From the NCBI GenBank assembly GCA_002633005.1, contig NMRA01000300.1:160022-224021 (forward strand): 64,000 nt of DNA, written 5' to 3'. This document shows, piece by piece, positions 32,763 to 61,576 of this stretch. The translations under genes and the position numbers were made by a program. Origin of the DNA: Phoronis australis. Lineage: Eukaryota; Animalia; Phoronida. The notes beneath the pieces were generated by a model. The model saw only the letters and a list, made by a program, of their open reading frames with translations, was not told the origin of the DNA and did no database searches. How positions within the stretch are numbered: the first letter of the stretch is position 1; each line of letters begins with the position of its first letter.

Positions 32763-33203
32763 GTAGTTATAACCCTTTATTGATCACAATTTAATTTTCA
32801 AACCACTTTAGTGTCGAGTCATCTTTGCCGCGAACTCTGAATCTAACCGAAGTTTTTACCCTGACTGCCAAAGCTCAGTCGCGAATAGCGGCCACTGATT
32901 TCTTGTCTTGGCTAATGCCCCGTGCGTTTGTCAGGAACGATCATGTCTAACTGGATTATATTTTCGATAAATGGTACTCGTTTCTGTTACAAAATTATGA
33001 AATTATTACCGTTGTGATTAGTCGATTATTTCGGTCTAGTGCCCAAATTGACCTATCGCCAGGATTATGACGGACGGCTTAATTGACCAATCAGAACGCA
33101 GCATTCTGCGTTTCCAAGCCGCCATTTTACCCGACAAACCACACGTAGTAGAGTAAAACTTACTTTAGTCTATACTAATAGCTCAAGAAATTGTCCACTA
33201 AGA

Positions 33204-33410
33204 ATGGGGAAACGGTGTTGATATGGCGTGTGTAGCAGCGACAGCCGTTATGCTGCATATCCCGTCATTTTTGGCATGTCCTAAGCCGAAAAATGATGTT
33301 GAAAAGCGTAAACTATGGATCAAACTGTACGGCCACACGAGCAGCTGAACTTAGCGATGTTGCTTGATAACTCGAAGGCTATAATAAACACAAATATGTT
33401 AGTTCCAAGA
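33204..33410 (+). pseudogene. THAP zinc-finger pseudo-exon (transposon-derived)
   Basis: MGKRC*YGVCSSDSRY..., then after a frameshift CPKPKNDVEKRKLWIKL...HEQLNL...NKHKYVSSK: the C-x4-C...P...W...VCSxH pattern. Confidence 0.7.
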
Positions 33411-37270: not shown

Positions 37271-37397
37271 GTATATCCCTGATAATTGCCTAACATGAGA
37301 ATCAGCTTGAACATACGTCTACCTTTCTTAGTGACGATACACTGTCGTGCCACTCCTGGTGTTCAATGTCATTACAGCGCTGGTTAAAAACGATTAA

Positions 37398-39485: not shown

Positions 39486-41642
39486 TAAGACAACAGATTC
39501 GCAACTCTGACATTTACTTACATGCTAGCCAAGAGGCCGCTCCTCTCCTAAATTTTCTGGTGCAGTTTCCGGTTAGTGTATTTTGACGAGAAATATTTGC
39601 ATCTACATTGGTGTCCAGTACAACGAAAAAAATATTAATTTTGGCATTGAAACGCTGTTCAAAGTCTTCCAATAGTAGAAGTGTTGGTATCGTGAGTAGG
39701 CCTACTTTTGGCAAATGCTACTGGTAATTAATTACAAAATTCAAACTTCGGTGCCGACTGACTATGTCGTCTGCTTGCCCAATAGCAGCATAGTTAATGG
39801 ACAGTTTGTGATTTACGGTTCACTTATGCCTATTGAGAAAACTACGAAAGCATGTTTGTGCACAAATTCCAAGGAGTACCTGTGAATGCAAAAGATACTT
39901 ATATAACCTTTTTCGTTTAGAAAAATATTAATTTTGTTCGAATTAAAAAATGCGCCTCTGCAGCTATTTGACTAATTTATCCTCTGCATGTTTACAATTC
40001 AACATTCTCAGGTGAGCAGTTCTTCTGGGAAGTGTTGAGTGGCCCTTTAAAGGGCCTTAGGTATAGCGTGAAATGGTTCTTAAAAGAACCGTTGATTAAT
40101 TCCACCCAGCCTTCAATTTGGGAGGCTCGAATTCTTGACGTCGTGGACCTTATCCTAAAAAAACAGCGGGCGGAATAAAAAATGGCCAATCTGTTGATAC
40201 AGTAAATTTCCTTATTTATGCCCATCCTGATTTGACTGCAACTTGAGCTTGTTGGGTTCTATCATATATTTGGATGGCATTGGGACCCACATGGTGCTTT
40301 CTCGAATGGGCTTCAGTTTACCAGCTATAGGTGAAATAAATAAACAAAGTGGGTGATTATCATCACCGGAATTTCATCATTAGTATCTTTTGCTGAGTGC
40401 TCAAATTTTCTGAGACTAGGGATTGTCAGATTTGTAAGGTAGAAGTGCTCGCTGGATTTTCAGTTCTGTGTCGTTATTTATACCGGACAAAAATTAAAAA
40501 ACGAGACCTTTGTTTAAATCAGGAGCTGCATGATACACGCTGTACCGGAGGTGCGCAGGCAGCACATGTGGGCCCATTGCACTGATCACTTGGAACCATT
40601 TTAATGGTTAACTAATATATAGTTAAACCAAGCTGAGCAGCTTGAAACCTGATTCATGGCAATTTTTGGCAGTGGGATTTTCTGAAAAATGCTCGTAGGT
40701 TAACAACAAAGTTTGACAGCAATGCACTGCAGTTTTGTAGAAACTCTGTCATAGGTTACAGATGCGTCACAGAGCGTAAACTTGATGAATTCTAGCTTAC
40801 GATTTCACCTGTTTCGGAGACTGGGTTTCAACCACTTTTGGGCTATAATAAGCGCCCTCCTTCCTGAAGCGGGTTTTTCTAAGCGCCCTGGCCGCTTATT
40901 AGGGCGACTACGGTAATAGTCCAGAAGGGCAATACTTAGTATCCCTTATGCACGCGAACCTTTCGTTACATTAGGCTTGGGATTGGCTCATTGTGTACCC
41001 TACAGGTGGCATAGGGCTTTACAAAACTGGTTGAGGAATTTTTTTTTCGTCATAAACGTCCGTTTGAAAGACTTAAGTTTGGAAATGTTAGGACTTTAGG
41101 CGGAAATTTAAAAACCATTTGTCCGCTAACAAAAATTTAACATTGAAGAACAAAAACAACTTTCAGGCCCCTCTGGTGTTCCTGTCCCATGTTTTCAAAG
41201 AAGTTGGTTGCATTTTCATAGACCGCAGTCGAGAGATTTTGTGCGGCATATATTCGACATGAAATGAGTGTGTAACCTGCTGTTGAATTGCGAGATAGAT
41301 TTTGACTGGTCCAGGTGGTTATTTCTGAAGTATTAATGTAATAATGTAATAAAGGTTTTATCAGCGTTCTGTTTATTTGTACACGGATGTGAATTTGTTG
41401 ACATCGCTGATCCAAATCCTGGCCAAATGTGCGCATTCTGCTGAGACCAACCGTCTGATCATGGCCAGCGAAGAGTAATTTGGTTAATTCGCTCACTAGG
41501 CTATGGCTGAATTTCCTCGTAAGGACAGGAGCTCATGAGTCACTACCTTTGGAAGAAATTTAGTGGACAACATTCGTCAAAAAGTTTACCAGATAGTTTT
41601 CATCAAAACGGAGAAAACAAAAATGGATTTGTGAAGACAGGA

Positions 41643-41864
41643 TTAAGTAGTAGGCCTACCAGAGCCTCTTAAAAAACGTTCATCTTCATAGTGCCATGAA
41701 CAAATATATAAAGTCTTATTGCTGAAACGACTGCCATTCACGTTGACACAAGAAATAAGTTTTTCTTCCCACAGCCGATTATGGGGTCTTCGGATGGTAT
41801 GGAAGCTAATTCCTTTGCATTTCGCCTTTGTGGCCGAACAACCGGTCACACAGCAGCCGACCAT
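41643..41864 (-). pseudogene. THAP domain ORF at the 5' end of a P-element-like transposon remnant
   Basis: MVGCCVTGCS...GISFHTIRRP...LW...LYICSWHYEDERF is a C2CH THAP signature. A CATAG-type terminus lies upstream at 42014. No intact transposase follows. Confidence 0.75.
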
Positions 41865-44800
41865 GATTAGCAGACGACGTACTTGCCGGAAATTGCACCA
41901 GAAAATTTAGCCAGGTGTCGCCAGTGAATAATGACGTAACACCTTGTGCGTAAGCTCACAGATTTCGTCCATTGAAAGTATACGGAGTTGGCGGTCTATG
42001 TACTATTGTCTATGGTGCACCAAACAATCCCAGAACCATGAGAAACAAAACAGAATATTCTAACATGTCCAACTGTCATTACCAAATTCAGTAGTCTGTT
42101 ATTGATGAGAACAGCACACTTTAAAATACCTATTTTCCGAACATTTCAAAAATTTCAAGTGGCATGGACCGCGAAAACTCGTGAAAAATACGTTTTATAA
42201 GATCCCTAACGAAAGTACATTCATTCAAATTATTCACTTCCCCCTGAGAAGGAATTTCCAGAAAAAATGACCCAATTCATGGTTTTTGAAAGAAGTACGA
42301 AGAAAAGTTTATATGGTAACCACCTATACCTGCCAATCTCCCTCTCACTCATGATAAATGCGCGCATGCGCTCAGTCATTCGACAAATGAACAGCTGATT
42401 CAGTGTCAGGAGCGTTGTGGAGTGATTACTTTGCCACCCAATGTGCTTTATACCTCGTGCCGTGTATTTTGTGCCTACCTCTACGATTCTTCATGATTGG
42501 ACCATTACTTGAGATTTGATCATGCTGATCTACAGTGGACTATTATTCATTTACACCATGTGTCTGAGGACGGTGCTGCGCTAATAATCGAGGGCGCGGT
42601 TTGCAAGACGATACGAGACAAGATGTCGGACAGTGGAAAGCTGGGCAAGAAAATGGGACGTTCGTCTAAGCTAACCGACTCAGTTAGAAAGAAAAGAAGG
42701 CAAGACCTGCAGCTGAAAGTTAACAAACGACGCATTTATCTGGGTACAGAGCACTGCCGCTGGGAATCTCTTAGAAGTCAGCTATCCGTCACTAATTCCG
42801 AGCTGGCCAAACGAAAGCTTGATAATGCGTAAGTACTTGTTCGGTCCTGCATACTTTGGTAGTTATCGGGACATTGCCCGGTCCCAGCTTATCAAAATCA
42901 CCTCGATTCAATAAAGTAATGGTCCGAGAACTCACTGAGAAAGTGAAGAGTGTGAAAGTTAAACTCAGACATAAAATTCACCGAGTTGCTTTGTCTGTTG
43001 ACATTTAAGCTAACCTGCTAAGCCTACTTGTGTGGCTAAGCCTATGTCCTACTTATGACATATATTGACGATTTGTTTAGTTGTTTACAGTTGATAATTC
43101 TTGAAACACTAAGAGAAATTACAAAGCATTATTACTTTGAGATAGTACCACCGTCTCAACTGACTGCAGTAGAGATGGCAGTTGTCCAATAGGCCCTCCA
43201 CCAGTTGGAAATTTTTTGGCGAATTGTGCCACATTGATTAAACCATCGAAGTCATGTTGCTGCAGCGAACTTTTGCAGATAGAGGGATACCTTAGGGGAA
43301 TGGTAATGTCTTAAACTCTTCCCAGCTCGGTCGAATACGAACGGGCATTAGGAGTACATTTTCTGTCCTTCGTTAAGGTAACAAAATTATGGACTGACCA
43401 TTTTTGGGAAACTGGCTCAATTCTGTATTGATTGAGTCATTGCTGTAGCGTTTTGAAATCACATTGAGATCGACCTCCATGATGGAGTAAATCATTAAAG
43501 CACTACACTGGTGATCATCGGAGTTTGCTAGTCCTTGAAACTTGGCCGCAAGGGTTGTACCACTCATACCTGTGCAAAATGATATTGTAGATAAACAAAG
43601 AAACGAATCAGAAAGAAATCTTGATTACCAAAGTATTTGTTCAAGTTGGAAGGAATTAAAGACATCGACAGCCTCCTAAGGTGACCATGTCTATGTTTTA
43701 AAGGTACTTAAGGCAGCATGACTTTCATGGTTTAGTGTGTGCGAGGTACGAGTTGCCAAAAGGATTCTTGCTGCCCCTGGAAGACCCCCTGTGGCACCAG
43801 ATATGGCCCAGTTCAGACAGCAATTCTGTTTTAGTGGCAAGCCGTGCATTTTGCTAGATTGAGTACTTGCAAAGTAGGTACAAAGTCATGTCTCATGGAT
43901 TTGTATCCTTGTTATCTTGTTGTACCTTATTTACAGACCTATGTATATTGACATTAAGTGGTATTATAATCTGAGAGATCAAGAGGTCTACCTTCTTCAA
44001 AGATATTATGCGAGATCTGGAAGAAAATCCACTGCTAAAACCTCATTAATCAAAATTTCGCTGCCCTACAAAGATTAACAAAGTAAAAGCACAAACGTTC
44101 GTTGATCAATTTTCATAATTCAAAAACACATTAACAGAGGATAACTTTTGGTTACAAATTCCAATTCGCAACAAAAAATTTAGTAATGAATTGCACTCGC
44201 ATTTTTTGCGATGGATATTCATGTAGTTTGGTTGTTATTATGGCGGCGAATTGTACCACCTGTATGCTTTGACATCTGTACCTGTAGTTAATAACTAGGT
44301 TATTGTAATTTCATTTTTGCACTGTAGGTATGAAGTGGCACAAAGTGAAAGATTTTCAACAATGTCTAGACAAGTGTCCACAGAGTCAGAACCTGAAGCC
44401 CTATCAGCAACACCAGCTGCAACTCCCCAGTTTGTTCAAAGGTATTTTAGAAATTATTTTTTCAGTGAAATTGTGTTGTCTACACCTTCACCTACTAGTA
44501 TTTGTGTCTACGACAATACATGAAATGGAAAATTGCGTTTGTTGAAAACTCCAAGTCATTTTTTGTGAGGGTTACTAATTTAAATCAAATCATTCCAGCT
44601 TGCCATTGTTAGAAATATTACTGAACTTGCATTCATTAAGCCTTAACTGGCTTGGACTATGGACTGATTGGTTGTATTTTCATCAAGATTTTGCTTTCCT
44701 AACTTTGCTCTAGGTTGAACTTGATTTTACTGTACCTTATTAATACTTCAATTATGGTCCAAATGTTGTAACTTGTTTTATTGAACTGACTCTGAACTTA

Positions 44801-45368
44801 CTCTAAAAACATTGTCCTTAAAACACGTTTAAAAGTAATCACATTTTTTGATGTTATCTTTACAGATATGACTGTGCTACTGCTGTTCTGAAGCCTGGGA
44901 CCTCAAAACTGGTGCCATCAACACCAACTGGTTTACATCCATCAACATTACTCAGGTGTGAAACTGTTATTCAAAATGAATATTTGTACTCTACGTTGCT
45001 GAATTTTTTACTGACAGTGGTTTAGGAGCATTGGGATGTCAAGAGTGAAAATGTAAAAGCTGTAGGCTTATTTGACCATGTCTCTGACAATTATGAGCTT
45101 CTAAACTGCACCAATTGAAATATCCCTGTTAAACGAGAAAAAGGCAAACAAACATGCAAACTTCGATTCACATGTACGAACCATAATTCATAATAAAACT
45201 TGAATCGCAGATACAAACCATATCAAATGTATGAACAAAAATTCATGCATGTAAACCAAAGAAACAGATAAAACAAAAAACAGGGGTACGAAGTAATATC
45301 ACTTAATTACGTAAACATTTTCTAGTGATGGTGGTCATAATTTGTTTTCTCAAGGAATCCAGCATTAA

Positions 45369-46866
45369 AGTCCTTCTCTCACGCGTTGTTAACCCTTATT
45401 ACATGGTTAGAGGATGTTATAAGGATCCAAGAAGTACCTACCCCATAACTAATACACGATCCGTACTCGAAAAAAAGTTTAAATGAATGCGCCACTCACG
45501 GTTCGTATCCGAAGACCCATCGCCATTTTGAACTTGCCGCTTACCCGGAACTACAATTCATTCAGGAACCCAGACTAAGAAAACGCCGTCAGTGTGAGTG
45601 CCTGTTACCAGCCTGCAAACGGGGATAAAATAATCGACAGCGCGCCTTAATTTTAATAAAATCAAAATACGGACAATTTTATCGAATTTGCTGAAGAAAT
45701 GTGGCGAATGAATTTTGACAGAAATTATTTTGCCAGACTCGGGACCGCAGCCTATCGGACCCGGTGCCGATCGGGACCAGACACTGGCGAACGGTAAACG
45801 CATGCGGTTGCAAGCTGTTTTGTCAAAGTAAAATGGTCAAATCATAAATGCTGCATATATTCAAGGGTAGTTTCAGACACTTGCATGAAATTACGGGCTG
45901 GTTAGTACATCTTATATTTTTGCACAAAAACACGAAAATGGAACAAAGTTTCTTTTTGTAGCAACGTTTGTCAAAATGTATCAACGTTAAATCTTCACAA
46001 ATTACAAAGAAGCCGACTGAACATGCCTTTCAGTTCAGCAAAAGTCGCCTTGCTGTCGGTGCCGCCAGAAATGAGGCGAAGTTCAACGGGTGTTGTGAGC
46101 ATGAGTAACAACTGCGAGGCTGAAATTTGGTGAATACTGTTAAATCGTGCAGATTAATAAGTAAAGATATGTCTAACTAAATTTCACCGTAATTTGTTAG
46201 CGAAAACAATTTACATACATTTTTGAACTCGTAACTTGTCCCGCTGTCCTCCAATAAGGCGGACGCGATCCAAACAAAGTGACCCAAATTTCGCCACAAA
46301 ACTTGCAATAACTTTACACTGCTTGCCCCGATTTTGATACTTTTTCGATTTTTACTGAGTAGAATGCACTACCTTTCCGATGATAGCAAAGTACTTTTTC
46401 AAAACGAGAAAAAAAATAACACCAAAAAAATTGGTTCGACTCATATTGGTTCCTAGGTTCGACCAGCCTACGTAAGGAACTAAACACCAATGCTATTTTA
46501 ACATACTAAGTACGCGTTACATTCCAAAAAAAGTCAACGACCACTAACTACAAACTATATATACAGTACATATGCAAACGAATCGCGAGATATTACTAAT
46601 AAAACAAGCGATAGCACATTAAGTTACAAGGAAAAAATGGCGGCGTTCAGGACAAGTTCCTGAACTGATGACCGGGAAATGTGGGTACGGAAATAACCGA
46701 TGACAACCGGTAATCATACGCTCAGAGAGAACGGTCAAATACTGTTCAAAAATCGCTTTTGGCAAGAAAGGTGAAAAGAATATAAAGAAAGGGTGTCGAA
46801 AATAAGATTTTATGTAGTAATTATTTTCGGATACTGGAACCACATGGGCAGTTTGAGAGAAGGACT
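45369..46866 (-). mobile_element. Kolobok-like non-autonomous DNA transposon, copy 2 (inverted)
   Basis: TTAA|AGTCCTTCTCTCA ... TGAGAGAAGGACT|TTAA: perfect TTAA TSD and 13-bp TIR. Confidence 0.9.
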
Positions 46867-47243
46867 TTAAGCAAAATGGCAACATAAAATGTATCAGTAG
46901 AAGAACTATGTTCTTACATGTTATTTGTATGTCTGATTAGTTATTTTGTGTGCATGACTGTTTGTTTGTACACATCATGTTGTGGTTCGTATGTATAAAT
47001 GAAGCGTTCTTCCAAATGATGCAGTGTTTTGTGCGTATGACTGCTTGACACCCTCGATTAGTTAATGACAAATATTGAACTCAAGATAACTTTCTTTATC
47101 ACTTAAATGTGATTATGGCAATGGTATATTTTCAGTGGGCTTGAGCTTTCTGGAATCGATGCAAGTGAGTCTGTCTGTGACGACGAAGCCTTGATGTTTG
47201 TATCCACGCCATTCATTACAAAGGTGTGTGAAAGTTCTGACTG

Positions 47244-47457
47244 GAGCCTGTTCAAGAAATTGACAAGATCGTTTTTGACTTGAGTCTAAGATTTGTCTTT
47301 AACTTCCAAACTTTGAAACTTCCAAGTTTGGTAAGTTAAGACAAAACTTATGTCAAACACTTTCTTGAATTGGTTTTGAGACAAATTTAACTTTATTTTA
47401 AAATTTACTAAACGTTGAAAATTGTCTTAGCTAAGTCAGTTCTGTTGGAACAGGCCC
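47244..47457. mobile_element. PIF/Harbinger-type MITE
   Basis: CTG|GAGCCTGTT...AACAGGCCC|CTG: 3-bp CWG TSD, TIR, and internal CTAAG/CTTAG motifs. Confidence 0.6.
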
Positions 47458-50400
47458 CTGATCTTTAAAATTTGAGAGAACTAGTCAGTGCTCATGAATT
47501 ATCTTGACAACAAACTGTTAAGTGTTGTAACTGATGATTGAATTGTGAAATATTTTGTGCATATATTTTGCAAGGTATATTCCATTAAAATGCATTTTTC
47601 TACATGTCTGGTATGGTCAGGAATGGTGTGCACAGGTTTCACTTCTAAGCATGACTGAATTTTGCATACTCTGTTTACATGCATTGTATATATTTGTGAT
47701 TTGCAAAGATGTACCTAAAAGCAAATACATCAAAAAGGAAATGGGCAGCAGTTTTGGTGACCCTTTTGACTAAATACCACCTATTAGGTATGGTTTTATA
47801 GGTCATCCTGCAACTAATCTTGTCATATTTGTATTTTTAATGTGACACATTGGTATTCCTAACTTATTCGAATATAGTGTGGGCAGAGTTGAAGTTGATT
47901 GCTCTATAATTTAAAAGTTTATATTCAAAGGCAACGTTGGGATTTTGAGGAGTTTTTATCAGTAGCATAGACAATCCATGAAATTTGTGGTGGTATTTTA
48001 TTTGACATCAAGTCATAAGTGTGTGTTCTGGATAGAATTTCCTAAGTCTGTTTTTTGAGTTCTAAATATAGAGACCATGCTGTACATGGATTGTTTTTTT
48101 ATCATAACTTAATCATGGTTAGGCGATATGTGGTGAAATCCAATAAATACAGACTGACCAATGCTTTAAAGGAGAAACACTCAAACATTTTTGACTCTCT
48201 ATATTACAGGCTATTGATTGATGTTTCTGAGAACCTAGCATGCGATGACCTGGACGATAACTGTAAGTGCAACATAACCATCGGGTACACATTTAAATTA
48301 TGAGTTATCAAATATTTTATAAAAATACATCATTATTGTTCAGTGCTGACTATATTAATGAATTTAATTGAAATATATCTTCTACTGACGATTGCTTATA
48401 ATAGCTCAGTGCATGGACAGCAATGAATCTCAGGTTGGAAACCCTGACAGGACAGAAATTCTTTCAAAGTACTAACCATTAGGTCCCGCAAAACGACTAA
48501 AGAAGGCATCGTAAGGAGTCATCAAACGCTATATGTCTAAAACATATGAATTCTGAATGAACTATTTAACTGTTCTCCAGTGCACATAATGCGAGCCCTG
48601 TTACTTAGTAGTTCTTCAAGTGCGTTACGGGAGCTAGGTGTTGTGGCGTTTTTGAAATTCTAAAGGGCAAGATCATCATGCTTTCTCTTGTTGCAGTCCA
48701 GAAAGTATCCTTGATGATGTGGATATTAGCGATGTTGGATTTGGAGATGACGAGTTTGGTGGGGAGGAAGTTGCATCAATATGTACCGCTATGGAGACAA
48801 TGATGACACGTTATCCACTGGTTTCGGTGGTGTCCACAGAATTCATGATGCAGCTGGTGCACACTCAGCTGTGAACGCTAGCAAATTTATTGTTTTTAGG
48901 ACACTCTCCTTTCCCTTTCAAATCTCATCAGCGTGTCTTGCAAAGAATGAGTGATGTTCGGATTTCTTCTGTTAAAGGTTTAGCACTCTCTTTTTTTAAC
49001 TCCTCCGAAAGGTGTCGCACTTGCTCATTTGGTCATTGCATTTACTCTTCTCTGAAAATTAGGAGATTTTTCACTAATTACGGAAGGGATATAATTCACT
49101 TAGCTACAGCCTCAGCTCACTACTAGAAAAACATGGAATTTTATTCAAAAACTGATGTCACATCACATGAAAATCTGCGTAAAATGTAATGGCTCCTTTT
49201 TTCTTCAAGATGTAAAGTGACATAGAAGGTTAAATTTTGGATATTCTATATATTTACAAGTCATAAATGTTTCTCTGAACTAGAGTTTTTGGGTTGTTTA
49301 ACTTTTTTCACGTGTTTGTTACTCATGATAAAGTACCTGTACGTCAGCTTGATAAGATGAGCTGGGGTCACTGAAGCTGGACCTGGAGTAGCTGTAGCGA
49401 CCGACTTCCATTTCCTTCCTTTACCTCCTCTTACACTTTCACATCTCCTTATTTTCATGGCTCTCCCACATATTCTATGGAAATAAACAGGCCTTTTAAA
49501 TTTCATATAGTCTCAAAGTTCATCAAAAGCCATGCCTAACATTGTGAGTAATTTCCAAACCAAAGCAAATGCTTCAAACAGGACTGGTAATGTGTGGAAA
49601 AATTCTGTTTCTGAGAGCATTCCATTAGTGAGTTCTTAGCCCCAGTCTGTTAGTCTAAGCTCTTTTCACGTTTTACCCCATGGATAAGTGTCACCGATCT
49701 GTTCTAATATTTTGATGCAATGTTAGACTGTACACTGGTTCGAGTTCATCACTTTATTAATCTTGACTGTATGCTCATATTAAGTCCATTCAAACAAAAC
49801 GTACATGTACAACGTAATATCTGTTCTATGCTCAGCCAGTGCTACAAAGCCTTGACTTTCAGTAATAACATGCTACTTTTGACAATTCTTTGTTTTCTAG
49901 CCACAGCTGAAGTGTTAGACAAGTTCTGTGCAATTGAAACTGTACAACGGCAGTTGTTGTAGCCAATGAATAATGTTATGAACTATGAAAGTACCTAGAT
50001 GTTCTATTATCATGTATTTTCTCGTCTGGGATGATAATTTGATGCTCCATGGACAGTTTAAATAAAATTATTTTCAATTAATGTTGCTGCAATTTCTGAT
50101 GTTTTTAGTGGGACAAATTTGCTGGAAGTGCAATTTATCATTCCATTTGTCCAAAGGTGTGTAGATTGATTGTCTTTTTATTTCTAAACACAGTTATGTT
50201 GCTCAAGTCTTATTTCATGCATTATGTAACTTCGTATCCTTCCATGAGTCCATACATCATTGATGTTTCATTGTAATCAGATGTAACAGTGGAGGTCAGC
50301 TCAATAAAACACTGAGAAGTTGATTGCAAACCACAGATTTGGGCAAATCCCTAAATTGCTAAGTGCTTGCAGTTATAGTCATTGAAAATGTGTAACATAC

Positions 50401-52524
50401 TTTGAAGAAAAACAAAATTATTTAGATCACGATGATGCTCGATAAAATAAAACTTTTTGAATGCTGTTGGGACTGAATGTTCATCATGATGCATAATGCA
50501 AACTATAACTGGGTGAACAATTAGGTTAATGTATTTACCACCAGTCCTTGAAACATATGTTTCTGTGACTTATCATCATCACATCTTTCCATGTAATGAC
50601 AATGTAAACTATCAGATGACTGGAGTTAACAGCTTTTGAGATATTAGGAGATAAACTGTGTTTTAGGTTCAAAAAGATACCAAAATTTAGCATTAGAAAG
50701 TTAATCTTCCCAATTTTAAAGTTTTATTTAAAAATTCGTTGTGAAGCACCTTGTAATTGGTTAGAATTGCTGTAAATAACAGTGTGATTACTATGGCATA
50801 GATTTAATGTAATTACAAAGTTGGTCGAGTCATTGCACTTGGTCAATGTAAACATGGCCATTTGAACCCTAAAATGCATTGACTACATGTACTTTGGGCC
50901 CACTGGGTGCATTTGGCCCCAGAATTCAAGAAAACCTTGGGCCAGAAATTTTGGGGGATTCTTTGATCTGTAAACAAGAAAGTTCAATGAAGGTTTCCAG
51001 AGAAATTCAGATAACATTTTCTTCCACCACTAACAGCTGAGGATTTAGCTAACTGCACTTGCACTACTCCGCCACTTACTAAACGGTGAATATGCCAGTG
51101 GCGGATCTAGGATACCACAAGAGGGGCCCAACATGACGCCTCGGAGACATGGGCAAAGCTCGATTGTATGCACAGGTGGCTCGAATGTTGTGGGGGCAGG
51201 CGATACGTATCTGGTGTTCCGGAATTCTACCATTGGGCTCGATGTTTTCTCACGCTTCACGCTGTTGCTGTTTAATTTTTTTGCTTGCACCAGTCAAGGG
51301 GGGTCCCTTGGCCTGTACGCAATCATCACGTAGTAACAATTAATAATCACCCCGAGATACATTTTCGTTATAAATCTACGTACAGCCACGATGCATTGAA
51401 ACGTTTTTAGCAAAATGTTATTGTTCATGTTTACCATAGATTATACACAACATAGTCTATGATGTTGACCGTACGCCGATCGGCCCGGGGGAGCCAGACT
51501 ATTTTCATTCACTAAACGAGAAGACACGAATCGAACGTTTTCCGTTTGAAATGCACATAAATGAAATCCTAGGCAAAAAGTGTATTAGATCATACTTGGG
51601 AGGGCATAGAAACCAAATAAATCGATAACTTATTTCAGAAATGGGACTTCTTTGAGTCAATCGAGGTGTCGATGTCACGGTGCTTTCGAAACCAGCCATC
51701 ACTGTTTTGCTTTCGTCGACCTTTCACCTCTCTGAGGTCATCAGACCTTTTCCAAATAAAGCACCGCAATGCATTTTGGAACTGTAATGTCGGACTTGAC
51801 GAGCACGAAGGCGTGTCCTTTTGGTCAACTTTCAAACGTAAATAAAAATACTCCAAACTCATCTAAAACTCACAATACTTACGAAACCTACAAAAAACTT
51901 GTACGCCACGATATGATACAGATTTCATGCAAGATGAGTAACATGTACTTTCTTATTTTATACATGTACTATTTTTCACGTTCGAAGCCACTTTAAACTA
52001 ATATTTTATCACTTTTTATAATCTATGAAACTTAAGTACAGTTCTTCCTAAATGCAACACAAATTTACAAAATTTATGATGCATAACGTCAGTAGTGTCA
52101 CTCATGTGATGAATCCATATTTCTGCACCAATAGGTCACGTGATATCTTAGAGTCAAATAATTTGAGCCACATCTCAACTGGTATGTCAACAAATTTTGA
52201 CGTATACGTTTTTCGAATGAGTCTGCTTTAAAATGATTGAGCACATGACTTGTTATTCTCCATAATATTACAAAAATACACAGACGTATTTACATCGCCT
52301 TCATCTACACAACCTCTGATTAGGTCAATTGATTCAAGTCGTTCCGCTGAATTCAAACTATTTTGGTATGCTGTATAGTTTCATTCCAACGCAGTTTGCT
52401 CTCCATCTTTCTCAGCGCGTTACCTTCGTATTCATGATTTAGGTAATGAGTTTCATCAATTTCAAATTGCAGTGGAAAGGAATCATTTGTTCGCCATAGT
52501 TGAAGTAGGAAGGAATCACATAGT

Positions 52525-52780
52525 CAATAACACTGTTACCTATACTAATAAAACTGTTACCTACATTAATAACAATGTCGTCTATACTAATAACACTATT
52601 ACCTATACTAATAACACTATTACCTATACTAATAACACTATTACCTATACTAATAACACTATTACCTATACTAATAACACTATTACCTATACTAATAACA
52701 CTATTACCTATACTAATAACACTTTTACCTATACTAATAACACTGTTACCTATACTAACATCACTGTTCCCTCTACTAAC
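52525..52780. repeat. 21-bp minisatellite (ACCTATACTAATAACACTATT, about 12 copies)
   Basis: Direct reading; gives spurious TYTNNTI/ISIGNSV ORFs. Confidence 0.95.
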
Positions 52781-52899
52781 AAAACATGCAAACCTTTCAA
52801 GGCTTTTGTCATTTCCAATTCTCCCATGCACAATTCGCAACCTCCCTCATTTACATAAATATAATATATCTGTCAAATAATCATTATATTAATTGTCTA

Positions 52900-54450
52900 T
52901 AGAAATGCGCGGTACAGTGTAGATGTGAAAATCATATTCCATATGTTGAAAATCATTATTAAATGTACAAAACTCATTCTTCATAAATCTGGCACGGATC
53001 CAGTCCGTGCATTCAAGTCTCCACATAACAAGATCTAACAGAATGGAAAATTCTCTTTAAATTTTACAATAGCATTCATTAACTGATCAAAAACAGGGTC
53101 GTCAGAAAATACACTTTATCTTTTGACTGATGCGTGAACTACACCGCCATGCAATGGTTCATACTTATCGGTAAAAACAAATCTTAACCACAGAATATTT
53201 GGAGAACATGATTTCGGCCACTATGTAGAGGGGACAATATTTTATTTTACAAAAACGAAATGCCAAATGAACTGCGAACTGCTCTATTATACCTTTTCTT
53301 GCTTTCACAAATGTCATTGAATGAATTGTATCCATCCAAGGGAAAATCCCCAATACTAATTCCTCAGGTCTCCTCCTTGAAAACATTGTTTGATGTGTAA
53401 AAGCTCCAATTTAGGCATACGTCATTACATGTAGGTGACGTGGACAAGTCTAGCGTAGTGACTGTCAGCCTACATTGTAAGTTATCAATATGAAGAGTGT
53501 ATAACTCAACAAGCATGCCATGAGAGTTATTGTCGCTAATTAGGTTTAACTTAGTGAACAACCTGAAAATGTTAGTTGGTGATTGTTGTCAAAGACCATC
53601 CACTCTACCAGAAAATATAAAAATTTCAGCTCTATCAGATACAGATTTTTTAGAGGTTTGTCAAAATTCTGTCCGCGACGCAGTTGGTTTATTGTCATTT
53701 GACCCTATTTTGATCCGTATTTTGACCCGTATTCAAGATGAAATTTCAAAAATGCTACATTTCCCATGTGGTTTAATCGTTTTCATTTTAGAGTCATTTG
53801 ATGAAAATCAAAAAATCCAGTTTTGATACGTCTTGGAACAGTTTAAAACAAATTCCTAACATGTTTTGGTTTGAAGAACATTGCATATAAAGTGAATCCT
53901 CAACGAGTCTCGGGTTTATGACGTGGCAAAATCTCTTGGAAATTAAGTCAAATCCGGAGGCTTGTCGAGGGATTTTGATGAAATATCCAAGAGGTTTTGC
54001 CCATGTCATGAACCCAAGTCGACTGTAGGATTTGTTTCCTCACGTGAACCGTAAAAACGATCTTTTTGCAGAAAAACTTCGACGTGTCTAAAACTTTCAA
54101 CCACATGACGCAACTTTTGTAAAAACACGCTTGCGTTATGTAAAGTAAACCCAGTTACTTTTTTGTTAATAACTTTATTTTAAACTCAATAATTGCAAAT
54201 TGCATTTACCTTTCGTAACAAACGTAGAAGCTAGAATCTAATAAATACTTTTTTGAAATTGTAACATGAAAACAAATGTTTATAAAAATAACAGTGAGCA
54301 CTTCTTCCCGCTCTTGAGCACTGAATTGACCTTGAGACAGCACAGCTAGTTAGTCTCTTCGCGCGGTTTCTTGATTTGGGGTTCATCTCCGTTCGAATGA
54401 ACGATGATATGGAATTCGCCGGCGAAGGACTTTGGATGTCATGTTGAACC
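52900..54450 (-). mobile_element. Degenerate LINE 5' portion (APE endonuclease and upstream region), CR1/RTEX-like
   Basis: Minus strand at about 52985-53035 reads ILLCGDLNARTGSVPD (APE GDxNA motif). The upstream region is coding-like but full of stops. Confidence 0.55.
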
Positions 54451-54599
54451 TTGTTTCCTTCATGGAATTCCGGCATCGTTTGGTAGCTGGTATTAGTGTT
54501 TGGCAGACAATAAAATGTAAGGCGTATAGACCTAACTCACGCCGACAGGAGGAGCGTCCCAAAACAAGGCTCGCTACGATAGCTCTGTTGGCTTATCGG

Positions 54600-54741
54600 C
54601 ATAGTTCAGTGTATTCCGCGTTGCCGACCAGGGACGGCTAGAAAAAATACGGACATTTAACTGCCTGTTTTTACAACCCCTAAGGACGTTGAGATTCGGA
54701 AGCGTTGGGTCGTTGCCATACGCCGCGACGAAGGAAAATAT
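54600..54741 (+). pseudogene. THAP domain fragment
   Basis: QCIPRC...*...TPKDVEIRKRWVVAIRRDEGKY, matching the FPKD..R..W...IRRD THAP core. Confidence 0.65.
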
Positions 54742-55081
54742 GTCTGTGTAAAATTTTTAAATGTTTTCGAACAGTTTCATCATATTTTGTCGCATCTCGG
54801 TTGCCGAGCATAGCAACAACCGGAGAATCTTCAGGCAGCCAGGCTATGTTTTCATGACTACGGGCTGAAACATGATGCATTTTTCTTCCCAAAAAGGGCA
54901 AGGCCCTCAATCCCTCGATTTTGGGGCTTTGTTCCTTCTCAAAAATATTGAAAAATTACACGAAACTCTCCCCACAGCGACTAGGCCTAAAAAATGAAAA
55001 TTTCTCTTCGAAGTCCAAATCACCTAACCACACAGGTGACAATTTGAAAGAGCACTAAATGCTAGTTTAGACAGTATGCCA

Positions 55082-58000
55082 TAGTCCATTCGCCTCTAGG
55101 AAGCCTAGAAAATCACTTCCGTGGCCACTTTTTGGGGGCAAAATCATTTTGGTGTTTTTAAGGTCATTAAGTACCCTACTTTAGGTATCTAAAAAGTTCC
55201 CACGGTTTGATTTGCGAGAAATTTGACCTCAAAAATGTGACTTTTTGCATAATTTGGCACAGAAAACCATTTTTCAAAAACTGACAACACTAGACAAAAA
55301 CTGAATGACAATTTGACTGGGATTTGTTCATTTGAAGTTACTGAACAAGAAAAGTGATATATACTGTATTATGATATTAGGTGGAAAATTGCTCAAAAAG
55401 AGAAAAATAATATTTAAGCAGCACCTCCTGTTGGCCAGAAAACATACTATTATATATCTGCCAAAAAACAAATACTATAAAAAATTTGGACGGAACGTGA
55501 TGAATATTTGATATCACAACCTACATATGAACAATATAGATTCCCAACACTTCTGCAACAACTTCACTGTCATCACTTTCATTAATTGTCACAATTAATT
55601 ATCATTATCCACATTGCTGTTCACTGTCAACAGTCACAGAAAACGACACCCAACAGTCCCCACAGTCACCACCATGATTAAATGTTGTCAATATTTTCCA
55701 TTAGGTTGAAAATTTAAAGCTCTTTAACAACATAGCGTACACTTATTATGTTTCTTCATCCAATCCATCATCATTTATATCATCAAAAGTTGTTTATTGA
55801 CTAAGACACCGTGTTCACAAAGTCTGGAGAGTCACACAACTTAGAACATGGCATGACTGACTTCAAACAAGAGCACATTTTTTCTACAACCACTTCTTTT
55901 ACACTTGCCATTAACTTTTTCACGGCATTTTCTGGGGCTAAAGGCAGAGTCATCCAGTGGCGCTTCCGACTAACCTGCTCCAAAAGCCACCCATTACCAA
56001 CTGGAGATGGTGCACTGACATGCTGCTGCAAGGCTCGTTTTGAATGGCACACTGGTAGTTTGCTCTTTTAGCATGTAACAGCAAACAATCATGACGAGGA
56101 GGCAGATCACAGATTTCAACCTGAATATGTGGTAGCGTGCTTTGTTAACTGTTGATGACTCGCCGTACAGCCCAACTTTAACGGCAAAGAAAAAGTTTTA
56201 AAAATCTGTGCAAGCTTGCATCCTACCCAAAATAAAAAATTGACAACCTGAATACCGTTTCATCTAAACATCTTGTTACAGTAATTCTATTTAACTGAAA
56301 TAGATAACCAAAATGCTCTTCACTTTAGCACACCGTATGGCCAACAACTGAAATTTCATTTTGTCTAAGTGCTCAGCGAAAATAAGCATTAAGAGAAATG
56401 AGCATCATTACTAGCATTGATTGCACTGTGCAGCTGCCTTCAAACAATTTAAAACTTAGAAACATTTTTATCATCCTTAATACAGTAGTTCAGCCTTTGA
56501 AAATAGAGGAATGGTCATGTTGGCAATAGTTTTTGATTGAAATTGAAAAGCGTCTTCTTTGCCATAGAGCCAAAATTTCATTTGACTTCCTGTTTTAAAT
56601 AGCACATAATTGGATGAGTAAACATTTTCCTTCGCTAAAAACTCCAATTCAACAATCTTTTCAAATTGCGAGATACTGAAATCTGTGCAACATTTGAATT
56701 TTCAAGATAAATGAATTACAGAACACAGGCACTATTTCCATTTTTATATGTCTCAAATTCCAAGCACTGCTCATGATTTTACATAAAAGGGTCTCAAAAT
56801 AGGCTTACAAATTCATAAAAAGCAGTGCTGACCACTGACATGTACATGTAGGTAAAAACTACTGCCAGTACATTTGAGATTGAGATGACTATTACTACAA
56901 ATTTATCAAGCAAAACATTTTTTGTAAGTGTGACCTAAACTAAAGATTATTTACCATAAATGACATCTTAAGAATAGGTAGGCCTACTTACATTTGAATG
57001 TTTAGATCTGGGATAGGTTTTCAGCTTTTCTTTTGTTTGTGAAGTTCCCCTGTGATGAAATTTCATTTGTGGCAAATGGTTCATTGTGGTGGCAAGACAT
57101 ACGGTATATTTCACTGTTAAATGTACATGTAATTGACATTCACAATCTCTTTAATTTTCTCGTGGACTCAACATTATTTCCATCATCAGCTTGGTCTCTT
57201 CTTCTTTTTTAAGAGCTCTTTCAATCAATTTTTGTTATATCTGTTAAGTGTCTGTAACACGGCTTGTGATAGAAGCATGCGCTCACCAAGCCCAAAAATG
57301 GAGGGCTCCAGTTTTTAAGAATGTGTACATTTATTAAGATTCACGGGGTACTTCAGAGGTACAAATTGTGCGTTCGCCGAATTTTGGTAGTTCCTGCCTT
57401 TTTAGTGAACTTTTGTCTCGTTTTTTAATGTTTCGGAGTTTTATTGTTTCTGTGAGGCTGACCTTTTTACACACTTTACCAAATGGGGGAGCTAGTTCAA
57501 GCCCCCGAGCCCCCCACCCCCACCCCTTGGTGGGTGCATGACAAGAGCTGTTTTTTCACAAAAATTTAAAAACTTATCAGCAATGATACACTTGCACTCA
57601 ATGGTGATACGTTTGTTTGCAATAGCCCAGGTAATATCTGAAAATTCCAGCTCAGAAATTTGAGCAGAATCTTACACATGAATGCTACAAAGGGCAGACA
57701 TCTTGCCAGTCTATTGTGAACTCGCACACTCGTTCAATAATTCATGGTTTAAGCAGAGTCCTAGCTGTCCCAAAACTGTTCTTTGCGAAACACAAAATGA
57801 TTCATGAAATAAATGTGCCAAGAATTGTTTCATAACGATGACACTCGTGGCCACTTGATTTGGCTTTCCTCAATTCCTAACTGCTGCCTGCTGGTTTTTG
57901 AGCCTTGGTCCTTGATAATTTCCTATTACTTGCACACCCATCCAAGAATTGATACTATCCAATGTAGTCAGTAGTAGTAAACAAGCTAGCCAAGCCTGTA

Positions 58001-58320
58001 GGATAACATCAGCTGACTGTCCTCTGATGAATGTTTTCATGCCAAGCAGACGAATTTTGAAGGGGAAAGGTATGGACACAATATTTTTCTTGCATTTGAT
58101 TGGTTGTTTGGATCATTTTGCACTGACACCTGATGGCAAACACATTAGTTGAGGTTATATTTTTCCAACTTCTAAATTAAAATTCTAACTAAACGTGCAA
58201 GTGTATTCTTGAGAACTTTTTTGAAATTGACTTTTGAACATCTGTAGATGGGTTTAATGCAAAGCTCCCGTTGACCCCAGAAAGTGGCCACGGAGGTGAA
58301 ATATAGGAGAGCTGGGACTA
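55082..58320 (-). mobile_element. Academ (AcademX)-like DNA transposon, internally deleted
   Basis: Termini TAGTCC...GGACTA with the imperfect TIR block TCAC(T/C)TCCGTGGCCACTTT(T/C)TGGGG. C-terminal remnant LPPRHDCLLLH...RALQQH..PSPVGNGW...WMTLPLAPE...CSCLK..MPCSKLC (Cys8 finger, 55801-56110). N-terminal remnant FYHKPCYRHLTDITKID (about 57225-57275). Confidence 0.65.
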
Positions 58321-59628
58321 TGGCCTACAGAGCCTATGAGAGCTTGCAACAGTGCGGGGGTGCTACCTTATGATGATCGGGAGGTAGATTTTCCCCTCTC
58401 TCGTCAAAAAATTCCCCGTCCCCCTCAGAAGGTACAGGCACCTCATTTTCCCCTCGGATGAACGAGGCCCCAGAAGAAACATGATAACTATGCTTGCTCT
58501 GTCCGGTTAACTGAAATTGAGCTCTAAAACGATAATAGGCTTTGGACGAACGAATTAGGTGTTTTAATATGAAAATTCAAATTGGTCCAGATTGATATAA
58601 CCTAACACATGAAATACAGTGTAGATGTAAGAATTACTGAAACCAACTGAAGAAAGCAGAATTGATAGTCAAATAATATTTTCAATTACGAGCCTAGTTA
58701 TTTATTTTGATAAAAATATATTTAATAACATCAATTATTCTTTCAGATCAATAACAAATCAACTGTTAGTCCCGGTAGTCCCTACCTCACCAGGACCTAC
58801 GTGTAGTCTATGCTTGATCAACAAATTTAACCAGATGTGACTAATTGCACATCACAGCAAAATGTGGTGAGCCACCACTGTCGAATATATCTTCAACTCG
58901 TCAACAATACGAGATGACCTGCTTCTTGTAGAAAGTATTATCAACTATTTACAAGAAGAAATGCATCCCTGAATTCACCACAATACCTTATCCGTAATAC
59001 TACGATCGCCGCAATTGGGTCATATTTACTTTTTGTGTTTCAAACCTAGTTTTCCGAAAAAAAACTATACCCTTTCGTCAGACAACTCTTTGGTTCATTG
59101 ACTTGTTCTCTAATATATTTTTCTACGTCTCTGTTGTTAATTATCGACACATTTTTAAGTTTTAATATCCAGGTTGGACTCGAAAGACAGGCCTTTTAAC
59201 TCACGCAATGTCAACTTTCGCTTTGTTTATCGCAGTGAGCCTCGCTTTGGATTTTAATGTCCGCCGCATGAATTAGGTCTAGATGTATTTATTTTTACTC
59301 TGCACTACTTTGTGATTTGCCCATGTAATATCAAAAATTACGTACTCAATATTATTAATCAGTCGTGTCGTAACACATTCCAGGTCATGTGACAAGGCAT
59401 ATAATCTGAAAGTTTCATAAATATCCGGTCAGCCATTTGTGAAATATGGTGTTCCAAAGTTGGTCCAATTTTGACATTTTTCAAGGATCCTACTGAACAA
59501 GTGACTTGCAAGCCTGTTACAGACTGAGTTCGTTGTCTTTTTAAAGTATAACTTTTAATTTCTTATGAACATGTGACTATACTAAATATTTTCTCTCTAC
59601 ATTGAAAATGTGGTTTGCCTAGTTTCAG

Positions 59629-60446
59629 GTGAAGACACACGAGGAGAAATACTTAGCTACCAGGTGGCGCAAGTGCCAAGGTATTTCCATCAAGTTCAGT
59701 TGGTTCTCATGTTTCGACATCATAGTCGACACTGTTTGGGTGAACTGGTTATCAATATGTTCACCTCGACAGAAGAGAACGGGAAGAAATCCAGGTTAGG
59801 GGAGTGTCGCACAAGACCCCCGTTTCGTTCTTGTTTGGTTTGCGACTTTGTAGGCAGCGTCAACCGATTTGTGCACCTCAGTGGAAATGGCGGAAACAGG
59901 TGTCATTTACGCAAGCTTCTGTACACCAGTAACGACGCCATGAAAGGTCCTGCTTTATTCTTCTTCTCAGAATTTAAAGAAGAGGAGTATGAGGTGCTGA
60001 AAGAACTGATAACAAAACGGCTGGAGAATGCCGATCTTCGACGTTTCCGACCGAAAGCTATCAGCACTGGCTCCCGCAAAAGACATTTACGTCAAGATAA
60101 AGACACGGCTGCCATCGGAAAATGCCAACACGTGATCTGGGAGATTGATTTGATGAGTATGGGTTTGGAGACCTATATTCTATATCCAAAGTCCTACAAG
60201 GCCAACTTCTGTTCTGGCGAATGTGCATACCCCATGACCGCTCCACTTTTGAACACGACGAAGCACGCTTTTGTGAAAGGAGTGTACAAGGCGTACCACG
60301 GGCTTCATAAAACCCAGGATATTCCAGCGGCACGGTGTTCGCCGTTGGAATATAAACCGATTACCGTGATAACAAGAGATAACGCTGGTTTTCACTGCTT
60401 GAAAAGGCTCGTGGACATGGTTGTCACGCAGTGCGGTTGTGCTTGA
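59629..60446 (+). CDS. Exon 2 of divergent TGF-beta/BMP-superfamily ligand (prodomain arm, RKRHLR cleavage site, mature cystine knot)
   Basis: Acceptor tttcag|GT in phase 1 (alternative cctag| at 59623, same phase). Mature domain CQHVIWEIDLMSMGLETYILYPKSYKANFCSGECAYPM...NTTKHA...IPAARCSP...DMVVTQCGCA*. Open frame of 818 nt. Confidence 0.93.
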
Positions 60447-61576
60447 TAGCAGATTTGCCGTGTGAATGCAACGGTAAATGGAACAAATTTAAAGGGAGCC
60501 GTGTTTTCTTCTTGTAGGCTCAGTTTCTGGCGTTTTTTCTTTTTTTCTTTATTCTCCCTCAGACATGCTTCAATGTTGGCGAACCGCTTTGTGCAAAGAT
60601 TGAAAACAGAAGGAGAGATGTGTTTGCGGACACAGAATACATTCAGTCCTCTATGAATGACGTCACCTAGAGAAAAAAGTAAATGTAAAATTATTTATCG
60701 TTCATTCCGATACGATTCCAATCAATTTATACTGGAGCAGAAAAGAATCCGTCGTCTTCAATTCAAATTGTGCGATACGTATAGGCCGTGTATATTGTAT
60801 AACTCGCTGTTCGTTACATGTATTACATCTATGTATATTGTATATTGCATGCAAGTCGTCACACCATTGTAAGCAAGGGTGAAATTATACTGACCTTATG
60901 TCAAACGAAGTTTTTATTTTAGAGAATTTGAGTCCAAACATTTTCGACGGTAGCCTGCATGACTGTAAGAGACTAAAAAATTAATGTGTTTCGCAGACTC
61001 AAGACACTTGCCGCGAGAAAACCTAGTGTGATCACATGCCTCGCTTGTAATGCATGGGGCTATCTTGCGCGAGTTGCTTGCGTCTGGGGAACAAAATCCA
61101 GGAAGGTGAGCATCCTGGTTGCATCGTTCTAGTGCAAATGAGGAATTCACTGCTCAAAGACTTCAGTCATCGCCGGACCGTCTAAAGCGAAATCCGGGCT
61201 TCGCCGACACTGTTGTGAGACAAATTCTAAACTTTGCGTGAGATTTTGTGGCAGGTTGTCCATCAATTATAAGTTATAATTGTGTTTAATTGGTGTTGCA
61301 GACTTCTGATGATCTGATACTATTACATCCGTTGCATTGTCTTTCGGCCACAAACACCACCACGTGGAAAGTATTTCCGCATTGTTACACTGACACTTAA
61401 TGTCTCAAATTCAAAATATTGCACATGAAAAGGCAAAGCGTTCGCGCCTGATTGAGGGCTCCGAATCCGAATCGAGCACACTGGATATCAGTTAAAGCAC
61501 GCTTAACATAAATCTCACAGAAATGGCGCACAAATTTCACATTAAGTTATATGTGTCAATGAGTATCAGAAACATA

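What the first reader, a model, noticed from the sequence alone, without database searches (positions are those of the whole stretch)
60093..60446. TGF-beta-family ligand lacking the dimerising cysteine but carrying a new finger-2 cysteine
Seen in sequence: all six cystine-knot Cys are present (GKC, NFC, GEC, RC, QCGC). The canonical CC is RC; the Arg codon CGG at 60333-60335 is two changes from TGY, so a single base-call error is unlikely. An extra Cys appears in finger 2 (GFHCLKRL, 60396-60398). Established: loss of the interchain Cys is rare and known from GDF3, GDF9, BMP15 and Lefty, which act as non-covalent dimers, heterodimer partners or antagonists. Inference: the unpaired finger-2 Cys could give an alternative dimer geometry or covalently tether the ligand to its prodomain, a receptor or matrix. 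This would be an undescribed invertebrate ligand design.
Basis: partly seen in the sequence, partly recalled or inferred. Interest (0 to 1): 0.85.

Follow-up and report, generated by a model that had tools for sequence, protein, structure and literature searches.

The report
Divergent BMP-like ligand without dimer cysteine
A real, expressed animal growth-factor gene of the TGF-beta/BMP family has lost the cysteine that normally links its two halves, a loss that is common among its relatives, and gained a private cysteine elsewhere; it likely works as a non-covalent dimer that dampens or modifies BMP-type signalling.

Summary
Observation confirmed: six knot cysteines, Arg (CGG) for the dimer Cys, and an extra Cys at 60396-60398. 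RNA reads of another sample show both codons unchanged and link this exon, across a 33.2-kb intron, to a signal-peptide exon at 26182-26461: an intact 365-aa precursor. 'Rare, undescribed in invertebrates' fails. 28 of 145 relatives lack the dimer Cys, 21 of 49 among the divergent, unnamed spiralian/amphioxus ligands it groups with. Papers report the loss in nematode, ctenophore, sea-urchin and amphioxus ligands. The extra Cys is private (0 of 145), replaces a usual Val/Ile, and is not among the listed interface residues of a modelled canonical homodimer (0.69 against best control 0.00; may be from memory). Best reading: a non-covalent dimer that binds type II well and type I poorly (antagonist or heterodimer partner), with an incidental cysteine. 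A covalent prodomain tether is untested (about 12%). The scan noted a like Cys-plus-Trp loss in a Trichoplax ligand before.

The parts
26182..26461 (+). Exon 1: ATG, predicted signal peptide (hydrophobic core residues 3-13), N-terminal prodomain with a CxxC (Cys78, Cys81); ends at a phase-1 GT donor (26462)
   Evidence: 7 X7 reads leave exon 2 with loose letters whose 25-letter consensus lies at 26430-26454, the only match in the window; open frame from ATG 26182; mean hydropathy 2.87 over 11 residues. Likeness to TGF-beta straitjacket motifs is by eye only; not significant.
26462..59628 (+). 33,167-base GT..AG intron; the part examined (44001-59628) is mostly multi-copy repeats
   Evidence: Junction and length; repeat depth over 44001-59628.
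59629..60092 (+). Exon 2, prodomain arm domain (5 Cys: 129, 153, 162, 165, 185) and basic cleavage site ending in RHLR at 60092
   Evidence: beta-sandwich strands in the AlphaFold2 model; whole-length Foldseek matches to pro-TGF-beta1, pro-activin A and pro-myostatin; sense-strand RNA.
60093..60446 (+). Exon 2, mature cystine-knot domain (117 aa) and stop
   Evidence: Pfam PF00019; best solved relatives BMP6, BMP7, BMP2; TM 0.89-0.90 to BMP2 chains.
60333..60335 (+). Arg329 in place of the interchain (dimer) cysteine
   Evidence: inside the modelled two-fold interface (residue 73).
60396..60398 (+). Cys350, extra cysteine on finger-2 strand beta7 (column of BMP2 Val99)
   Evidence: 0 of 145 relatives have Cys in this column; not among the listed dimer-interface residues (residue 94).
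60150..60176 (+). Finger-1 stretch in which the type I pocket residues F23, W28 and W31 (BMP2 numbering) read L, L and Y
   Evidence: Alignment columns; both Trp lost in 8 of 145 relatives.
60447..60920 (+). Transcribed 3' untranslated region (end not defined)
   Evidence: Sense-strand RNA depth 1-6 in X7 to about 60920.

Best explanation
This is an intact, expressed two-exon gene for a BMP-like TGF-beta-family ligand that lacks the interchain cysteine and likely acts as a non-covalent dimer, predicted to hold type II receptors but to fit type I receptors poorly, so likely a dampener or heterodimer partner of BMP-type signalling. Shown: gene structure, expression, both cysteine changes, and the receptor-surface residues. 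Inferred: secretion and furin cleavage; a canonical head-to-tail dimer held by the kept hydrophobic interface, with Arg at the two-fold axis; antagonist or partner action from the kept knuckle (T88, I90, L100) and the altered type I pocket. The finger-2 Cys350 is read as a private substitution of a Val/Ile at a variable strand position, with no special role. My odds for the steps: non-covalent dimer 0.8; Cys350 incidental 0.65; antagonist or heterodimer partner rather than plain agonist 0.5.
For: Intact 365-codon frame over two exons with a read-supported junction. Exon 2 begins at the same place as in the annelid relative (P0002 against full-length P0151, by eye). Dimer Cys absent in 21 of 49 non-canonical against 7 of 96 canonical relatives; at least 15 changes on a 57-row tree built with that column masked. 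Homodimer model: score 0.69, best of 3 controls 0.00, runs agree in at least 95% of contacts, partner pLDDT at least 83. The mark was reached by 21 of 30 solved pairs and 0 of 23 single chains in microbes; in eukaryotes by 17 of 29 pairs (animals 7 of 16), but by only 1 of 7 with no older solved relative, and by 0 of 30 single chains. BMP dimers are solved, so the pass may be from memory. The listed contacts are the canonical ones and include Arg329 but not Cys350. Type I pocket F23/W28/W31/Y103/M106 (PMC11898274, passages) reads L/L/Y/L/M. PMC11239237 (section 17) links divergent WxxW motifs to reduced type I binding in Panda and Maverick. The Cys350 column is variable among non-canonical relatives (V 15, I 5, Y 4, E 3, K 3 of 49), and other non-knot cysteines occur in 4 of 145 mature domains.
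Against: No receptor-binding or signalling data. The residue at BMP2 Ser88 is Thr, the agonist-type residue, not the Pro that makes Panda an antagonist, and the finger-2 loop is not lengthened as in Panda and Lefty. Y103-to-L/M is usual in this assemblage (31 of 49), so part of the altered pocket is old and may fit the animal's own receptors. An unpaired Cys in a secreted protein is normally disfavoured (general knowledge), and the precursor's non-knot Cys count is even (7 + 1). Relatives lacking the dimer Cys carry an extra mature Cys more often (3 of 28 against 1 of 117, p 0.02), though not within the non-canonical set alone (2 of 21 against 1 of 28, p 0.57). A residue not listed in the interface is uncertain by the tool's own caveat.
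Confidence: 0.42

Rival explanations
1. [quoted passage not shown] Cys350 is incidental.
For: Thr at the Ser88 position and kept L100, K101 and M106; homodimer model passes; replaced pocket residues stay hydrophobic; GDF9 and BMP15 form stable dimers without the Cys (PMC11210861, passages).
Against: Both Trp are lost together in only 8 of 145 relatives; F23, W28, W31 and Y103 are all changed.
Confidence: 0.28
2. Cys350 forms a disulfide with a prodomain cysteine (or with a matrix or carrier protein), so the ligand stays covalently tethered and latent after furin cleavage until reduced or clipped.
For: Prodomain has 7 Cys, an odd number, and the mature domain one spare. In pro-TGF-beta1 the arm beta1 strand hydrogen-bonds to growth-factor beta7 (bioRxiv 10.1101/165415, passages), the strand that carries Cys350. 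The exon-1 CxxC lies a few residues before the putative beta1 strand (assigned by eye from the TVRS-type motifs).
Against: Putative beta1 itself has no Cys. Cys350 alternates with K101/Y103 and should face the concave side, where helix alpha1 lies (inferred; BMP2 geometry recalled, alpha1 position from PMC4932183 passages), and the putative alpha1 has no Cys. No relative shows the pairing (0 of 145). Prodomain Cys counts vary from 0 to 10 among relatives, many of them partial sequences. The domain orientation in the exon-2 model is not determined (pTM 0.47).
Confidence: 0.15
3. Cys350 links two mature chains finger to finger, giving a new dimer geometry in place of the lost bond.
For: One cysteine lost and one gained in the same domain.
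Against: The canonical interface residues are kept and the model returns the canonical dimer without residue 94 among its contacts. In that geometry the two finger-2 strands lie at opposite ends (established fold), so a Cys350-Cys350 bond could only chain dimers together.
Confidence: 0.05
4. A decaying duplicate under relaxed selection, or an assembly error; the odd residues are drift.
For: Long end branch (1.0 change per column, best identity 41%); low expression in two of three RNA runs (0.3-0.5 against 4.4 reads per million).
Against: No stop or shift in 365 codons; signal peptide, cleavage site and all six knot Cys kept; correct splicing over 33 kb; no coding difference listed between two samples. 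Relatives in the same assemblage have end branches up to 1.3.
Confidence: 0.07

Closest known systems
BMP2/4 and BMP5-8 ligands (best solved relatives: BMP6, BMP7, BMP2)
   Same: Cystine-knot fold, no extra N-terminal Cys pair, TM 0.89-0.90 to BMP2 chains, kept type II knuckle and dimer interface.
   Different: No interchain Cys, both finger-1 Trp and Tyr103 lost, extra finger-2 Cys, Cys-rich prodomain; falls outside the canonical BMP/Nodal/GDF3 group in both trees.
Unnamed divergent spiralian and amphioxus BMP-like ligands (Ridgeia KAK2178947.1, Lingula XP_013394129.1 'GDF3-like', Pinctada KAK3091725.1, Mytilus XP_071146219.1 'dbl-1-like', Branchiostoma XP_066297780.1 'BMP8A-like')
   Same: Same 40-row side of the tree (93/95); longer heel helix with aromatic residues; dimer Cys missing in 19 of the 39 others; same exon-2 start as Ridgeia (by eye).
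   Different: At most 41% identical; none has the finger-2 Cys; most keep at least one Trp. The place inside the assemblage is unresolved.
C. elegans TIG-2 and TIG-3; vertebrate GDF3, GDF9, BMP15
   Same: No dimer Cys; a basic residue (Lys) takes its place in TIG-2/TIG-3; non-covalent homo- or heterodimers, shown for GDF9/BMP15 and modelled for TIG-2/TIG-3 (PMC11210861, passages).
   Different: GDF3 rows sit in the canonical group; TIG, GDF9 and BMP15 were not in the tree; no finger-2 Cys is mentioned in the passages seen.
Sea-urchin Panda, Drosophila Maverick, Lefty (antagonist-type ligands)
   Same: Degenerate WxxW type I motif (Panda, Maverick; PMC11239237); missing dimer Cys (Lefty; PMC4564238 legend).
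   Different: Lacks the nine-Cys pattern of Panda/Maverick/GDF15, has Thr not Pro at the Ser88 position and a normal-length finger-2 loop; scores far lower to GDF15 (25 bits) than to BMP6 (58 bits).

Membership tests
TGF-beta superfamily ligand | C-terminal cystine knot with six Cys (PF00019 above cut-off) | tested here: met
TGF-beta superfamily ligand | Signal peptide, prodomain and basic cleavage site in one spliced frame | tested here: met
   signal peptide judged by hydropathy only.
TGF-beta superfamily ligand | Signals through or binds type I and type II Ser/Thr kinase receptors | not testable with these tools
   No receptor sequence of this animal is held; no assay.
Canonical BMP group (BMP2/4, BMP5-8, ADMP, GDF1/3, Nodal) | Groups with these ligands in a tree of the mature domain | tested here: not met
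   Outside the 96-row group (SH-aLRT 99) and outside the 17-row side holding all 15 canonical rows (93/95). 105-106 columns only; labels and, for ADMP and BMP9/10, from recalled motifs.
Canonical BMP group (BMP2/4, BMP5-8, ADMP, GDF1/3, Nodal) | Interchain Cys and WxxW type I motif | tested here: not met
   Arg; Leu and Tyr.
Activin/Myostatin/TGF-beta s.s./Panda-Maverick-GDF15 | Nine-Cys pattern with an extra N-terminal pair (PMC4564238) | tested here: not met
   No Cys before the first knot Cys in the mature domain.
Lefty / Panda-type antagonists | Pro at the Ser88 position and a lengthened beta6-beta7 loop (PMC11239237) | tested here: not met
   Thr at that column; loop aligns to BMP6 without a gap.
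GDF9/BMP15 | Orthology by tree | not tested
   No named GDF9 or BMP15 row was among the hits used.
Unnamed spiralian/amphioxus divergent BMP-like assemblage | One side of a branch in the tree | tested here: inconclusive
   40 rows at 93/95, just under the tool's bar; the 27-row group was not recovered (0% of bootstrap trees); long branches may attract.
Molluscan gonadal ligands (oyster ogTGF-beta, scallop 'AMH-like') | Orthology and gonad-specific expression | not tested
   Lead from PMC10763453; its supplement held none of four motifs searched; the tissue of run X7 is unknown.

The most novel reading that the evidence does not exclude
A TGF-beta-family ligand whose mature domain, having lost the interchain bond, is disulfide-locked through a finger-2 cysteine to its own Cys-rich prodomain: a covalently latent, redox- or protease-released ligand that after release binds type II receptors but not type I, within an unnamed spiralian/amphioxus ligand family that keeps losing the dimer cysteine.
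Probability: 0.12. Interest if true: 0.75.

Novelty: new variant of a known kind. Interest (0 to 1): 0.36.

Why it matters
Loss of the dimer cysteine is shown here to be common and repeated in a large, unnamed set of invertebrate BMP-like ligands that databases label 'BMP2', 'BMP8A-like', 'GDF3-like' or 'dbl-1-like'. That set is a better study object than this single gene. If this ligand holds type II receptors without engaging type I, it is a natural antagonist reached by another route than Panda's proline. If Cys350 tethers the mature domain to the prodomain, it would be a new form of latency. Neither function is shown.

Tried and rejected
No whole genome is held, so paralogues elsewhere, receptors and synteny could not be examined; a profile search of the window's six frames found no second copy. 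Word-based protein searches found nothing useful: 0 hits and 1 already known. The ESM Atlas gave only generic TGF_beta clusters. No RNA holder was listed by index; the RNA runs came by species label. Exon 1 had no significant match to relatives' prodomains, and a global alignment misplaced it on the mature domain (discarded). The 27-row group of the quick tree was dropped after the careful tree did not recover it. Five of 150 hits (P0076, P0100, P0119, P0135, P0148) were left out of all counts because they do not end in the CxC motif. The careful tree used 57 of 146 rows. Models come without coordinates, so Cys-Cys distances could not be measured. Searches for a paper on a finger-2 or unpaired mature-domain Cys and for a name for the assemblage (supplements, two scanned files of PMC11239237 unreadable) found none; the library lacks most subscription journals. 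Rejected: base-call error; membership of Panda, Lefty or the activin branch; a nested host gene in the intron (more likely a repeat, see Noticed in passing).

Full report
Observation. The sequence is as described. The + strand frame ending at TGA 60444-60446 holds six knot cysteines, Arg (CGG, 60333-60335) where the interchain Cys belongs, and one extra Cys (TGC, 60396-60398). Pfam TGF_beta matches over the full model, E 2.5e-19. The best solved relatives are BMP6 (58 bits), BMP7 (53) and BMP2 (51), well ahead of activin (34), TGF-beta3 (31), GDF15 (25) and AMH (24). In those alignments the extra Cys falls on the hydrophobic residue just before the conserved LK of finger 2, the column of BMP2 Val99 (numbering recalled).

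The gene is real and expressed. Four DNA runs of one sample hold the stretch, and three RNA runs of other samples carry the same species label. On 59450-61450, run X7 gives sense-strand coverage, with mean depth 10.7 over the Arg codon's bin and 7.1 over the Cys codon's bin; depth dips to 0.4 in part of the prodomain. No other letter is listed anywhere in the coding exon; the one difference is in the 3' untranslated part, at 60602. X5 and X6 have about a tenth as many reads (0.3 and 0.5 against 4.4 per million, reads at least 95% alike); tissues are not known. Seven X7 reads run off the exon's 5' end, and their consensus matches one place in the window, 26430-26454. This defines exon 1 (ATG 26182, GT donor at 26462, phase 1) and a 33,167-base intron ending in AG at 59627-59628. 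The spliced frame has 365 codons and no internal stop, with a hydrophobic N-terminus, a basic cleavage site, 7 prodomain Cys and 7 mature Cys. Exon 1 resembles the straitjacket region only by eye; tests were not significant. The AlphaFold2 model of exon 2 (mean pLDDT 74.6, pTM 0.47) matches BMP2 chains at TM 0.89-0.90 and pro-TGF-beta1, pro-activin A and pro-myostatin along its whole length.

Relatives. Among 1.84 billion representatives, 1269 proteins scored E 0.001 or better and none 1e-30; the best 150 were returned. No orthologue is among them: best identity of the mature domain is 41%. Of the 150, 145 end in the CxC motif and were counted. The dimer Cys is missing in 28 of 145, replaced by T, Y, S, H, K, R, V, L or N; three have Arg. 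In a quick tree of 147 rows the protein lay outside a 96-row group (SH-aLRT 99) holding rows named GDF3, Nodal and BMP5-like. The Cys is missing in 21 of the 49 rows outside that group and 7 of the 96 inside (kin are not independent, so the Fisher p of 8e-7 overstates). A careful tree of 57 rows, with the dimer column masked, put the protein on a 40-row side (93/95) in which 19 of the 39 others lack the Cys, with at least 15 changes of state overall. Against my first reading, the tighter 27-row group was not recovered, and the protein moved next to a mollusc-containing subgroup (94/83) where 7 of 8 keep the Cys, so its loss may be its own. Five of the 39 have named sources: the annelid Ridgeia, the brachiopod Lingula, the bivalves Pinctada and Mytilus, and amphioxus. 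The assemblage has no family name that I could find. Named Lefty, Panda, GDF9/BMP15 and AMH rows were not available for the tree.

Prior knowledge. Loss of the dimer Cys in invertebrates is in print. C. elegans TIG-2 and TIG-3 have Lys there, with modelled homo- and heterodimers (PMC11210861, passages). Ctenophore Tgf4 and Bmp3 lack the fourth Cys (PMC3169577, passages). [quoted passage not shown] An unchecked note of this scan (e1-9544116) reports a Trichoplax ligand that lost this Cys and both Trp; I had noted the Trp loss before seeing it and did not test that note.

The extra cysteine. No relative has Cys in that column (0 of 145) and the column is variable among the divergent rows. Non-knot Cys occur elsewhere in 4 of 145 mature domains. 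Three of those four lack the dimer Cys (3 of 28 against 1 of 117, p 0.02), but two are a Cys two places before the usual site, and the excess disappears within the divergent rows alone (p 0.57). A two-copy model of the mature domain scored 0.69 against a best control of 0.00, runs agreeing in at least 95% of contacts, pLDDT at least 83. The mark was reached by 21 of 30 solved pairs and 0 of 23 single chains in microbes, and in eukaryotes by 17 of 29 pairs (animals 7 of 16; 1 of 7 without an older solved relative) and 0 of 30 single chains. BMP dimers are solved, so this may be memory. The listed contacts are the canonical ones (His306 with Asp356 and Met357); Arg329 is in the interface and Cys350 is not listed. 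That speaks against a new dimer geometry. A tether to the prodomain stays open: non-knot Cys number 7 + 1, growth-factor strand beta7 pairs with prodomain beta1 in pro-TGF-beta1 (bioRxiv 10.1101/165415, passages), and exon 1 has a CxxC just before the putative beta1. But Cys350 should face the concave side, where helix alpha1 sits (inferred; PMC4932183, passages), and the putative alpha1 has no Cys. I could not measure distances. Three searches for a described finger-2 or unpaired mature-domain Cys or its position found nothing relevant.

Receptor surfaces. The type I pocket of BMP2 is F23, W28, W31, Y103, M106 (PMC11898274, passages; converted from precursor numbering; that paper swaps the names wrist and knuckle). 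Here these read L, L, Y, L, M, and both Trp are lost in only 8 of 145 relatives. The type II knuckle is kept: Thr, Ile and Leu at S88, L90 and L100 (S88; L90 and L100 recalled). PMC11239237 links degenerate WxxW motifs to weak type I binding but ties Panda's antagonism to a Pro at the S88 position, which this protein lacks. So the antagonist or heterodimer-partner reading is an inference at even odds against a plain agonist with co-adapted receptors.

Other papers opened. PMC4564238 (passages), PMC7017013 (passages; prodomain Cys patterns), PMC10763453 (passages, section 6 and supplement search; gonadal 'AMH-like' lead), and PMC7535936, PMC13121700, PMC10847725, PMC5979292 (passages; nothing that names this family). 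Unread supplements, among them the Lingula TGF-beta tree of PMC13121700 and two scanned files of PMC11239237, may name the assemblage.

Verdict. A real, expressed, very divergent BMP-like ligand. The lost dimer cysteine is a known and, in this part of the family, frequent variant. The gained cysteine is private and so far without evidence of a role. The lost type I pocket is the better clue to function. New variant of a known kind; interest 0.36.

Noticed in passing
window 44327-50670 (+), inside the 33-kb intron: A spliced, well-covered transcript maps here (GT..AG joints 44441/47136, 47223/48210, 48262/48697 with 56-224 reads per run). DNA depth is 200-370 against about 8-15 in unique parts, and many letters differ in nearly all reads, so it is probably one of some 20-40 copies of an intron-containing repeat or mobile element whose transcripts come from other copies. 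Spliced at those joints, the acidic frame here stops early in the third exon.
   Followed up: partly
window 60261-60263: Lys at the column of BMP2 Asn59 (Asn in 124 of 145 relatives, Lys in 4 canonical rows). Recalled, not checked: Lys here goes with resistance to Noggin in BMP9/10 and in GDF5 N445K, so this ligand may escape Noggin-type antagonists.
   Followed up: no
P0056, P0116, P0144: Three relatives lacking the dimer Cys have another Cys near the dimer interface: two carry it two residues earlier (CxxC for CC), one in the heel helix. These are better candidates for a shifted interchain bond than this protein.
   Followed up: partly
window 26413-26424 and exon 2 59631-60092: The prodomain has 7 Cys including two CxxC motifs (78/81 and 162/165); most relatives have 0-4, many of them partial sequences.
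   Followed up: partly
window 45335-47335 and 58675-59341: Very high-copy repeats (summed contig depth 9,000-20,000).
   Followed up: no
window 14097-14498, 21554-21940, 52379-52880: Short-period tandem repeats that give repetitive open frames; not genes as far as seen.
   Followed up: no
window 1915-3249 (+): Two open frames that read like a decayed LINE-type retroelement (likeness recalled, not searched).
   Followed up: no
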